This document shows, one piece after another, positions 1 through 29,685 of a stretch of DNA of 29,685 bases. The position numbers and the translations under genes are program-made. Each line of letters begins with the position of its first letter. The stretch's first letter is position 1. The DNA is from Tubiluchus corallicola. Its lineage: Eukaryota; Animalia; Priapulida. Location: assembly GCA_030141605.1 (NCBI GenBank), contig JAQGDQ010001684.1:1-29685 (forward strand), in the 5' to 3' direction. The notes beneath the pieces were generated by a model that saw only the letters and a list, made by a program, of their open reading frames with translations, had not been told where the DNA came from and did no database searches.

Positions 1-662
1 TTTAGTACAACTTACAAGGTAAGACGTGAATCCACGGAGGCTGCTCCGTCACGGGTCCTGCACGTTTAGTACAACTTACAAGGTAAGACGTGAATCCACG
101 ACGGCTGCTCCGTCACGGGTCCTGCGCGTTTAGTACAACTTACAAGGTAAGACGTGAATCCGCGGAGGCTGCTCCGTCACGGGTCCTGCGCGTTTAGTAC
201 AACTTACAAGGTAAGACGTGAATCCACGACGGCTGCTCCGTCACGGGTCCTGCGCATTTAGTACAACTTACAAGGTAAGACGTGAATCCACGGAGGCTGC
301 TCCGTCACGGGTCCTGCACGTTTAGTACAACTTACAAGGTAAGACGTGAATCCGCGGAGGCTGCTCCGTCACGGGTCCTGCGCGTTTAGTACAACTTACA
401 AGGTAAGACGTGAATCCACGGAGGCTGCTCCGTCACGGGTCCTGCGCGTTTAGTACAACTTACAAGGTAAGACGTGAATCCACGACGGCTGCTCCGTCAC
501 GGGTCCTGCGCGTTTAGTACAACTTACAAGGTAAGACGTGAATCCACGGAGGCTGCTCCGTCACGGGTCCTGCACGTTTAGTACAACTTACAAGGTAAGA
601 CATGAATCCGCGGAGGCTGCTCCGTCACGGGTCCTGCGCATTTAGTACAACTTACAAGGTAA
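1..662 (+). repeat. 64-bp tandem repeat made of a GAPVD1 exon end (DVNPRRLLRHGSCAFSTTYK) plus GTAA donor; at least 10 copies, truncated by the window start
   Basis: Units start at 23, 87, 151 ... 599; GT donors at 19, 83 ... 659; the peptide directly precedes VFTEG in the GAPVD1 RasGAP region. Confidence 0.95.
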
Positions 663-694
663 GGCATCATGGCGGAAACCCGAGTTTTAAGATG

Positions 695-1196
695 CGGGGA
701 TGAGAATTTTCCACGGATACGCCGAATTCCGAGTTTTTGGAAGACCAGTAGTGCCGTTTTCGTAAATCGCGTAAATTCTTTGAGAAACTTTTTACGGACC
801 CAGTACATTATTTCCCAAGCTGACCACTAGGTGGCAGGCCGTCACTTTGTTTACATCACGTACATCAGTGTAATCACGTGTATATCTCCATGTATAATAA
901 TATACAATCAGTTGTGCAGAGTTATTTGAGTCAATTGCAGACAGTTTTTATAAACTTTTGCATAGGAGCAGGCAGTACTTAGGCGTTTTTGAGACAATTA
1001 GGTATCATGTATCCTTGATAGTTGGGTATTTTAAATTATGCATGAAACAAGGTAATTGATATTTTAAGTCCACTTAGAGGCTCTCTATGGTCACAAAATT
1101 GCAAGTTGTTGCTGGCTCCAAGGGGGCTTTGACCTAGGTGGCCCCAAAACCCCCGCCTGTTTCAGAGTTTTTTGCAATTTGTCATTCTTATCCCTG
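695..1196. mobile_element. Non-autonomous DNA transposon (MITE) with CAGGG-type TIRs
   Basis: TIRs cggggatgagaat (695-707) and attcttatccctg (1184-1196), 11/13 match, flanked by direct repeat AAGATG (689-694, 1197-1202). Confidence 0.65.
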
Positions 1197-1379
1197 AAGA
1201 TGTCTTTTAACGACTGTTTCTTCGTTTAATGGGATAAACCGTCAATTTTAGAGTGTCTCCAGAGATTTTATGCACATAGTTATATTACCTAACATCACAT
1301 GCACCTTGAAAGACTTATGTAAGTGGAAAAGAAAAATTCTTATTAATTTAAAACATTTACACCACCTGGTAAAATGACA

Positions 1380-1979
1380 CTGAACTGAGTGGTACAGCAC
1401 CTGTTTTCTGAGCAATGCGTTTCTGAAATGCAGGCGCTAGTGTCCGTCTAACTAGCGAATGGCGAAATGCATGTAACAGCGAAGAACTAGTGACGCGAAC
1501 GTGAAATTGTGTTTGTGTGGTAATAATTCTTTCATGTAAGTCGTTTTAAAAAATAGTATGTCTCTTTACAATATTTTAACCCTTTCATACCTGTTGGATC
1601 CCGTGGGATACGAGAATATTTTCTGCCTTTAAAATTAATAAAATTTTAAAACTGACAGTTATTTGATCTGTTAATTGTTATTTTGATTTAAGCCAATAAC
1701 AATAGACTAAAAATGGTGATAAAATGGCAAACTAGAAAATCTACATAGCATAAAAAACTGCATAAAGTACAGTACTTTAGAGACGACTTTGTACAGATCA
1801 GCATAGCATGCATACTAAATGTCTTAAATACTTCAAAAAATTATCAGCAGTTGTAAAATGAAACACATTTCTTGCTTTTTTTGTGTTTTTAAAAAAGTCC
1901 CAATAATTTGGGACTGAAAGGGTTAAAGAGTAGATTGTTTTGACCTGCAGTTTAACATTGGGTCCAGCTTTGCTTTAAA
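1380..1979 (+). mobile_element. Dispersed repeat family A fragment, interrupted by a piggyBac-like MITE
   Basis: 1380-1579 plus 1923-1979 align with 6960-7214; reverse copy at about 22122-23370; fragment at about 16700-16800. Confidence 0.8.
1580..1922. mobile_element. piggyBac-like MITE (TTAA TSD), internally deleted copy
   Basis: ttaa|CCCTTTCA ... TGAAAGGG|ttaa; the homologous empty site with a single TTAA is at about 7156; near-identical to 16976-17432. Confidence 0.88.
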
Positions 1980-1999
1980 TAATTTCTACATTTTCCCAG

Positions 2000-28778
<26,779 letters not shown>

Positions 28779-28798
<20 letters not shown>

Positions 28799-29685
28799 GT
28801 AAACAAGTAAAGTAAACAAGTAATTCAAGCAATTTTTCAGAGGTAAACAAGTAAAGTAAACAAGTAATTTAAGCAATTTTTCAGAGGTAAACAAGTAAAG
28901 TAAACAAGTAATTCAAGCAATTTTTCAGAGGTAAACAAGTAAAGTAAACAAGTAATTTAAGCAATTTTTCAGAGGTAAACAAGTAAAGTAAACAAGTAAT
29001 TTAAGCAATTTTTCAGAGGTAAACAAGTAATTTAAGCAATTTTTCAGAGGTAAACAAGTAAAGTAAACAAGTAATTTAAGCAATTTTTCAGAGGTAAACA
29101 AGTAAAGTAAACAAGTAATTTAAGCAATTTTTCAGAGGTAAACAAGTAAAGTAAACAAGTAATTTAAGCAATTTTTCAGAGGTAAACAAGTAAAGTAAAC
29201 AAGTAATTTAAGCAATTTTTCATAGGTAAACAAGTAAAGTAAACAAGTAATTTAAGCAATTTTTCAGAGGTAAACAAGTAATTTAAGCAATTTTTCAGAG
29301 GTAAACAAGTAAAGTAAACAAGTAATTTAAGCAATTTTTCAGAGGTAAACAAGTAAAGTAAACAAGTAATTTAAGCAATTTTTCAGAGGTAAACAAGTAA
29401 TTTAAGCAATTTTTCAGAGGTAAACAAGTAAAGTAAACAAGTAAAGTAAACAACTAATTCAAGCAATTTTTCAGAGGTAAACAAGTAAAGTAAACAAGTA
29501 ATTCAAGCAAGTTTTCAGAGGTAAACAAGTAAAGTAAACAAGTAATTTAAGCAATTTTCCAGAGGTAAAAAAGTAAAGTAAACAAGTAATTTAAGCAATT
29601 TTTCAGAGTTAAACAAGTAAAGTAAACAAGTAATTTAAGCAATTTTCAGAGGTAAACAAGTAATTTAAGCAATTTTTCAGAGGTA
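28779..29685 (+). repeat. 44-bp tandem repeat (with 30- and 58-bp variants) of an exon end and donor; about 21 copies, runs off the window
   Basis: attYaagcaaKttttcagagGTaaacaagtaaagtaaacaagta; the first copy overlaps coding FKQVFR. Confidence 0.95.

What the first reader, a model, noticed from the sequence alone, without database searches (positions are those of the whole stretch)
1..29685. Gene-wide pattern: tandem repeats seeded on exon-intron junctions create arrays of decoy splice sites
Seen: at about 10 of the 29 GAPVD1 splice junctions in the window, the junction itself is the repeat unit. Donor-type arrays: 1-662 (64 bp), 2111-2585 (about 160), 5496-5850 (177), 13062-13144 (42), 27482-27991 (88), 28779-end (44). 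Acceptor-type arrays: 5031-5385, 11601-11911, 12007-12827, and about 28330-28730. The units are unrelated to each other and range from near-identical to heavily decayed, so the process recurs over time. Wherever the parent exon is visible, the intact copy is exon-proximal and the extra copies extend into the intron. Inference: either a mutational process targets splice junctions (for example transcription/splicing-coupled breaks or R-loops, or composition boundaries), or a genome-wide tandem-duplication burst is filtered by selection. Either way, the splicing machinery must ignore up to about 20 near-perfect competing sites. It is a candidate route to intron expansion, splice-site turnover and new alternative splicing.
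Basis: partly seen in the sequence, partly recalled or inferred. Interest (0 to 1): 0.85.

Follow-up and report, generated by a model that had tools for sequence, protein, structure and literature searches.

The report
Mirage minisatellites crowd GAPVD1 exon borders
In an invertebrate's GAPVD1 gene, about ten of 29 exon-intron borders are copied head-to-tail into the introns; this repeat type is already known from lancelets ("mirages") and several human genes, is likely harmless, and its roughly twofold excess over chance in this one gene does not show that splice sites are targeted.

Summary
Fifteen GAPVD1 exons give a 993-codon open frame. Nine tandem arrays clearly span a splice junction; a tenth shares only a 10-base junction core. 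They are 10 of 24 arrays, and tandem repeats cover 52% of intron bases. Contigs of a second sample bridge unit borders in two of the three arrays checked, so these are not assembly errors. A null on repeat-collapsed sequence expects 3.8-5.0 spanning arrays (P 0.002-0.04). That excess is modest, comes from a window picked for the pattern, and disappears if the target is 600 bases per intron or less. Introns hold very-high-copy dispersed repeats that inflate the target. That the intact copy lies next to the exon follows from geometry. Decoys keep GT/AG and decay without coding constraint; 50 of 51 would give a premature stop. No RNA was available, so actual site use is untested. This is the lancelet "mirage" / human F7-type junction minisatellite, here dense. 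The scan has noted the same pattern in many other genomes. Best reading: frequent short tandem duplication plus a survival filter. Targeting of junctions is neither shown nor excluded.

The parts
1..663 (+). Donor-type array, 64-base unit (about 60 exon bases + GTAA), 10.4 copies, cut by the window start; parent exon not visible
   Evidence: TRF (95% matches); tblastn hits of homologs on the copies; decoy list
2114..2586 (+). Donor-type array after exon 2000-2151; unit about 161 (38 exon + 123 intron), 3 copies; decoy GT after 2312 and 2468
   Evidence: contigs of runs X1 and X3 bridge the copy 2/3 border
5029..5385 (+). Acceptor-type duplication before exon 5373-5531; 2 copies, 13 exon bases; decoy acceptor at 5199
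   Evidence: (168/176 identical); contigs of X1, X2 and X3 cross the border with only 22-30 letters on the short side
5496..5850 (+). Donor-type duplication, 177-base unit (36 exon + 141 intron); decoy donor after 5708 matches the U1 consensus better (8/9) than the true one (6/9)
   Evidence: (168/175); contigs of X2 and X3 bridge the border
11597..11911 (+). Acceptor-type duplication before exon 11882-11989; 152-160-base unit, 30 exon bases; decoy stub carries a stop codon
   Evidence: (133/154)
12006..12826 (+). Acceptor-type array before exon 12776-13076; 141-base unit, 5 decoy acceptors; fills almost the whole intron; exon-proximal copy differs by indels
13062..13144 (+). Donor-type duplication, 42-base unit; the decoy after 13118 is the only one in frame without a stop (would add 14 residues)
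27482..27992 (+). 88-base array after exon 27283-27485; shares a 10-base junction core with the true donor (4 exon bases); marginal member
28343..28730 (+). Decayed acceptor-type array, 68-base unit, about 5.5 copies, 74% matches
28779..29685 (+). Donor-type array, 44-base unit (20 exon + 24 intron), 20 decoys of which 19 keep GT; cut by the window end
1..28798 (+). GAPVD1/RME-6 gene, 15 coding exons in the window (RasGAP domain to the central region)
   Evidence: (PF00616 on three exons)
4142..27266 (.). Fourteen arrays with units of 20-121 bases that span no junction (4142, 5769, 7945, 10039, 15448, 17873, 18695, 19103, 21075, 22371, 24334, 25370, 26385, 27131): the comparison set

Best explanation
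These are junction-spanning minisatellites ("mirages") that likely arise from a general, frequent short tandem duplication process, and they likely survive because the copy next to the exon keeps the whole exon and is likely the one spliced. Step 1 (shown for this gene): units of 20-180 bases are duplicated in tandem throughout the gene, and some have grown to 5-22 copies; growth by slippage or unequal exchange is inferred. Step 2 (inferred): duplications wholly inside an exon are lost unless in frame (the two seen are 24 and 27 bases), while those crossing a junction leave one complete exon with its own site. Step 3 (inferred, no RNA): the first donor and the last acceptor are chosen by exon definition or upstream-first scanning, and rare use of a decoy would give a premature stop and be removed by nonsense-mediated decay. 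Step 4 (inferred): the twofold excess at junctions likely reflects transposon DNA swelling originally short introns, easier detection and longer survival of arrays anchored on one side by an exon, and the choice of this window.
For: 14 of 24 arrays span no junction; tandem repeats cover 13,070 of 25,063 intron bases. Four introns collapse to 106-158 bases. Intron 1 at 1560-1999 has summed contig depth of 2,607-258,699 against 0-22 on 2000-2615 in run X1, so it is high-copy repeat DNA. The excess is gone if the target is 400-600 bases per intron. Decoy exon stubs show 11 non-synonymous or stop changes and 2 synonymous ones, as expected without coding constraint. 38 of 39 decoy donors keep GT, and 50 of 51 decoys lead to a premature stop. 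Exon-side lengths run from 4 to 60 bases with no fixed register. The same anatomy with normal splicing is described in lancelets (PMC3087553; PMC3902484) and in human F7 (PMC1557585).
Against: The excess persists under several nulls: P 0.012-0.04 after removing the dispersed repeats visible in the window; 5 of 10 low-copy arrays against 1.8 expected, P 0.018; P 0.006-0.02 after adding six more intronic arrays. Selection against decoys should lower the expectation, and my null ignores that. Four of 14 non-spanning arrays lie within 50 bases of an exon against 1.7 expected (P 0.08). The 400-600-base cap is an assumption, not a measurement. No RNA shows which site is used.
Confidence: 0.62

Rival explanations
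1. Duplications really start more often at exon edges in this lineage, for example through breaks or fork stalls at the sharp composition step (exons 56% GC, introns 34%), nucleosome linkers, or splicing-coupled R-loops; selection then filters them as in the best explanation.
For: 9-10 observed against 3.8-5.0 expected. The excess appears in both low-copy and high-copy arrays. Three arrays have an end within about 5 bases of a donor (1-663, 27482, 24334). GC contrast.
Against: One gene, chosen for the pattern. Dropping the two arrays cut by the window edges gives P 0.016-0.05. There is no fixed breakpoint register. An earlier unchecked note of this scan reports no excess in a wider sample of another genome (e1-9992352; not tested here).
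Confidence: 0.22
2. The excess is only a fluctuation picked out by scanning many windows; array placement is uniform apart from loss of exon-internal frameshifts.
For: P values of 0.0017-0.04 correspond to 1 in 25 to 1 in 588 such genes, and the scan reads very many windows.
Against: Earlier notes describe similarly dense genes in several other genomes (unchecked). Dilution by high-copy repeats is directly seen and would give a systematic excess.
Confidence: 0.11
3. The decoys are kept by selection as a device that tunes GAPVD1 output through unproductive splicing or gives new isoforms.
For: Most decoys keep GT/AG. The decoy at 5708 matches U1 better than the true donor. One decoy (13118) is in frame. 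Three arrays are shared with a second sample.
Against: Stubs decay without coding constraint. The five homologs aligned show no insertion at the 13076 junction. Units and copy numbers are unrelated between junctions. Kept GT/AG is expected in young or homogenised copies.
Confidence: 0.04
4. The arrays are assembly or amplification artefacts.
For: The eight-hundred-base and longer arrays were not checked against reads; X1 and X2 may be the sample the window came from.
Against: Copies differ by 4-26%. A different sample and study (X3) has contigs 94-99% alike that bridge unit borders at about 2437 and 5672.
Confidence: 0.01

Closest known systems
Amphioxus 'mirage' minisatellites (globins BflGb6 and BflGb9, Adh3, troponin C, PGBD5). 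PMC3087553 and PMC3902484, passages read; the original Adh3 paper PMC117041 was not held
   Same: Tandem units that span an exon-intron border; both 5' and 3' borders; units of 10-160 bases there and 42-180 here; copies 81-100% alike; many but not all copies keep AG/GT; proposed there as a route to intron gain.
   Different: Here 9-10 of 29 borders of one gene, in an invertebrate whose GAPVD1 groups with none of the sampled arthropod clades. Normal splicing was reported for lancelet genes but could not be tested here.
Human junction VNTRs: F7 intron 7 (37-base unit with 4 exon bases), 6-16, CBS intron 13, lamin B2, PDGF intron 4. PMC1557585: abstract, introduction passages and whole discussion read
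   Same: First unit spans the exon end; identical downstream pseudo-donors (up to 25 in 6-16); in F7 only the most upstream donor is used, even against stronger pseudo-sites.
   Different: One array per gene in the cases listed, donor type only. In 6-16 and CBS two pseudo-sites are also used. This gene also has four acceptor-type arrays, which upstream-first scanning cannot explain.
Variable internal tandem repeats at exon-intron boundaries of human duplicated genes (PMC2812944, passages) and NMD sheltering of weak new introns (PMC2809761, passages)
   Same: Tandem repeats at boundaries can change splicing; premature stops can hide mis-spliced products from selection.
   Different: Those papers concern new introns; no new intron or shifted site is shown here.

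Membership tests
Mirage (junction-spanning minisatellite) | Tandem unit holds exon and intron sequence across a true splice junction | tested here: met
   9 clear and 1 marginal of 29 junctions
Mirage (junction-spanning minisatellite) | Both 5' and 3' borders can be duplicated | tested here: met
   6 donor-type and 4 acceptor-type arrays
Mirage (junction-spanning minisatellite) | Many but not all copies keep GT/AG | tested here: met
   38 of 39 decoy donors keep GT; 9 of 12 decoy acceptors have AG in register
Mirage (junction-spanning minisatellite) | Regular splicing is not disturbed | not testable with these tools
   No RNA holder listed; the open 993-codon frame and homolog alignment are indirect
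Mirage (junction-spanning minisatellite) | Copy-number instability between haplotypes; edge copy excluded from homogenisation | tested here: inconclusive
   No contig joint that skips a unit in X3; short contigs cannot count copies. Exon-proximal copies at 12776 and 27485 differ by indels from the inner copies
F7-type donor VNTR | Only the most upstream donor is used | not testable with these tools
   No RNA
Transposon-borne introns or one mobile repeat family | Units related to each other or to a dispersed family | tested here: not met
   3 of 45 pairs barely exceed shuffles; each unit matches its own local junction
Retrocopy or cDNA-templated duplication | Copies hold spliced exon-exon joins | tested here: not met
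   All ten units hold unspliced exon-intron joins
Mutually exclusive duplicated exons | Whole exon copied with both splice sites and a preserved frame | tested here: not met
   Stubs of 4-60 bases with one site; 11 of 13 stub changes are non-synonymous or stop

The most novel reading that the evidence does not exclude
This lineage has a mutational bias that seeds tandem duplications at exon edges, so that about a third of the splice junctions of an ordinary gene carry ladders of decoy sites; acceptor ladders in introns that were only about 100 bases long would then have forced a move from intron to exon definition, making the genome a natural test set for splice-site choice.
Probability: 0.2. 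Interest if true: 0.65.

Novelty: new member of a known kind. Interest (0 to 1): 0.27.

Why it matters
As it stands, it is a dense example of a named but little-studied repeat type and shows how introns of about 100-150 bases can grow several-fold by copying their own borders. Such arrays can mislead gene predictors and read aligners: tblastn hits all ten copies of the first array. If a genome-wide test confirmed a bias, it would tie the origin of minisatellites to gene structure. With RNA, the acceptor ladders would test exon definition in an invertebrate. My searches of the held library found no genome-wide enrichment test for mirages, but most subscription papers are not in it.

Tried and rejected
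No whole genome is held, so the genome-wide permutation could not be run. No RNA holder was listed; run X6 (RNA is a guess) laid only one repeat contig on 1560-2850, so site use stays open. X5 gave only 26 and 1 partial contigs. Only 1560-2850 and 4995-6330 were laid, so 3 of the 10 arrays were checked against reads. A second homolog search with exon 2623-2808 found nothing at E 1e-5. The tree is the quick version, has 24 homologs (named ones all arthropod, five unnamed) and no named outgroup. It puts the window on a long branch in none of the supported clades and cannot name the phylum. The Adh3 mirage paper was not held. PMC10078293 and PMC12783039 (passages) had nothing on junction-spanning arrays. 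Mostly synonymous variation among copies of array 1-663 looked at first like coding constraint; by my reading of the six variable columns, four are changes at CG dinucleotides, so I do not use it. A 25-base hit over the acceptor of the nested gene at 15289-15333 is at the false-positive level (0-1 per shuffle) and was not counted. Two weak partial repeats (8193-8391, 9702-9806) were left out of the 24 and added back with little effect. Microhomology at unit borders is 0-5 bases by eye and was not tested. Supplements of PMC3087553 were not opened.

Full report
Gene model. Reading the window and fixing boundaries gave 15 exons that join to 2,980 bases, 993 codons, no stop, with 14 of 14 introns GT-AG. 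Three exons hit RasGAP PF00616 at E 0.0027, 3.5e-6 and 7.5e-11; only the last passes Pfam's cut-off. Exon 12776-13075 finds 403 proteins, the named ones GAPVD1/RME-6 or unannotated, best 69-73% in a centipede, a sea spider and a scorpion. Alignments to five homologs run across the junctions of the conserved part without a missing exon. In a quick tree of 25 rows the window has a long branch (1.02) and falls in no supported clade. Earlier notes on this genome suggest a priapulid; my tree is compatible with that but cannot test it.

The arrays. TRF and self-BLAST recover all ten arrays. An ungapped scan finds copies at 8 of 29 junctions. Alignments and direct reading add the acceptor at 12776 and, marginally, the donor at 27485. 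Exon parts of the units, read from those alignments and the sequence, are about 60, 38, 13, 36, 30, 51, 15, 4, 22 and 20 bases, a mean share of 0.32 with no fixed register (KS against uniform P 0.025). Fourteen more arrays with units of 20 bases or more span no junction. An automated period scan found only six further weak hits outside my list, two of them in-frame exon-internal repeats of 24 and 27 bases. Arrays and microsatellites cover 13,070 of 25,063 intron bases.

Are they real? Six runs were listed, none on record as RNA. On 1560-2850, X1 record 8 (2365-2549, 1 difference) and X3 record 15 (2403-2582, 9 differences) bridge the border between copies 2 and 3 of the 161-base array. On 4995-6330, X2 record 13 (5575-5743, no difference) and X3 record 21 (5523-5711, 1 difference, 1 gap) bridge the 177-base border. 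The acceptor duplication at 5029-5385 is crossed by contigs of X1, X2 and X3 with 22-30 letters on the short side, below the tool's 31-letter rule. X3 is a different sample and study, so at least two arrays are shared beyond the possible source sample. The other seven arrays were not checked against reads.

More than chance? I collapsed each array to one unit, placed each of the 24 units at random, excluded placements wholly in an exon or over a whole exon or intron, and counted the two coding junctions of the nested gene as targets. Expected spanning: 3.8; P 0.007 for 9 and 0.0017 for 10. Without the two arrays cut by window edges: 3.58 expected, P 0.05 for 7 and 0.016 for 8. With dispersed repeats recognisable inside the window removed (4,058 bases, 23 arrays): 4.96, P 0.04 and 0.012. 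With each intronic stretch capped at 1,000, 600 or 400 bases: 5.0, 6.6 and 8.3 expected; P for 10 is 0.014, 0.09 and 0.29. Low-copy arrays: 5 of 10 against 1.8 (P 0.018); higher-copy arrays: 5 of 14 against 2.0 (P 0.036). Non-spanning arrays within 50 bases of an exon: 4 of 14 against 1.7 (P 0.08); within 20 or 100 bases, P 0.17. So there is a 2- to 2.6-fold excess that depends on how much intron DNA counts as target. Contig depth shows that part of intron 1 is very-high-copy repeat, so true transposon content is probably above what self-comparison finds (inference). All P values are uncorrected for the choice of window.

The decoys. I list 39 decoy donors and 12 decoy acceptors (for array 1-663 the first visible copy was taken as reference). 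38 donors keep GT and score as well as the true site against the recalled U1 consensus; the one at 5708 scores better. 50 of 51 would give a premature stop. The exception, 13118, would add 14 residues where five homologs have none. Exon stubs show 2 synonymous and 11 non-synonymous or stop changes. Outside the ten arrays the introns hold 28 GT sites at or above the median true donor score and 81 acceptor-like sites, so the spliceosome must ignore many look-alikes anyway. That the intact copy is exon-proximal needs no mechanism: after a tandem duplication across a junction, only that copy is continuous with the whole exon.

What is known. Borensztajn et al. (PMC1557585; abstract, introduction passages and discussion read) describe the F7 37-base VNTR whose first unit spans the exon end. 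Only the most upstream donor is used, even against stronger pseudo-sites. They list 6-16, CBS, lamin B2 and PDGF as further cases. Ebner et al. (PMC3087553, passages) describe lancelet globin 'mirages' of both border types, 81-100% alike, with regular splicing, length instability and a model of intron gain. PMC3902484 (passages) adds PGBD5, Adh and troponin C. The term 'mirage' reached me through earlier notes of this scan, and I checked it in those two papers. The scan has noted gene-wide versions in at least six other windows of other genomes; one note reports no excess in a wider sample. These notes are unchecked leads.

Verdict. The feature is real and dense, and it is a new member of a known kind. 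The most likely mechanism is general short tandem duplication and expansion, with junction-spanning units tolerated because the exon-proximal site keeps its full exon context, backed by nonsense-mediated decay. Duplication, decay of stubs and stop codons are shown; site choice, decay of mis-spliced RNA and the cause of the excess are inferred. A true bias towards exon edges remains possible (about 0.2) and needs the genome and RNA. Interest 0.27.

Noticed in passing
window 17753-13883, minus strand: Nested vanin/biotinidase-like gene inside GAPVD1 intron 13077-23437: two coding exons, CN_hydrolase and Vanin_C domains, with a lysine/arginine-rich stretch of about 60 residues between them. Neither of its two coding junctions is duplicated.
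   Followed up: partly
window 3432-4985: Long inverted repeat, arms 3593-4081 and 4402-4882 at 84% identity; looks like a non-autonomous DNA transposon. The 73-base array at 15448-16515 resembles part of this family.
   Followed up: no
window 1560-1999 (related copies at 16971-17273, 7115-7205, 22114-22178): Two dispersed repeats with summed contig depth up to about 259,000 against about 10 on nearby single-copy DNA in run X1: very high copy number.
   Followed up: partly
window 22542-22916, minus strand: 125-codon frame with a cysteine/histidine pattern that recalls the C-terminal end of a LINE reverse-transcriptase protein (recalled); no Pfam hit.
   Followed up: partly
window 5682-5813: Run X3 has a contig with 12 differences and 2 gaps over the second 177-base copy, overlapping a near-identical contig; it may be a further copy or a diverged allele, and it changes the +5 base of the decoy donor.
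   Followed up: no
window 19103-20370 and 21075-22070: Two purely intronic arrays (75 and 92 bases) also contain acceptor-like pyrimidine-CAG motifs with no exon nearby; homologs show no missing exon here.
   Followed up: partly
window 24334-25091, 10039-11277, 26385-27266: Arrays that start or end 1-40 bases from an exon without spanning the junction.
   Followed up: yes
window 25871-25939 and 12899-12948: In-frame exon-internal duplications of 27 and 24 bases.
   Followed up: partly
window 12776-12790: The exon start lacks 2-3 residues present in five homologs, at the acceptor whose array copy carries indels; a link to the array is not shown.
   Followed up: no
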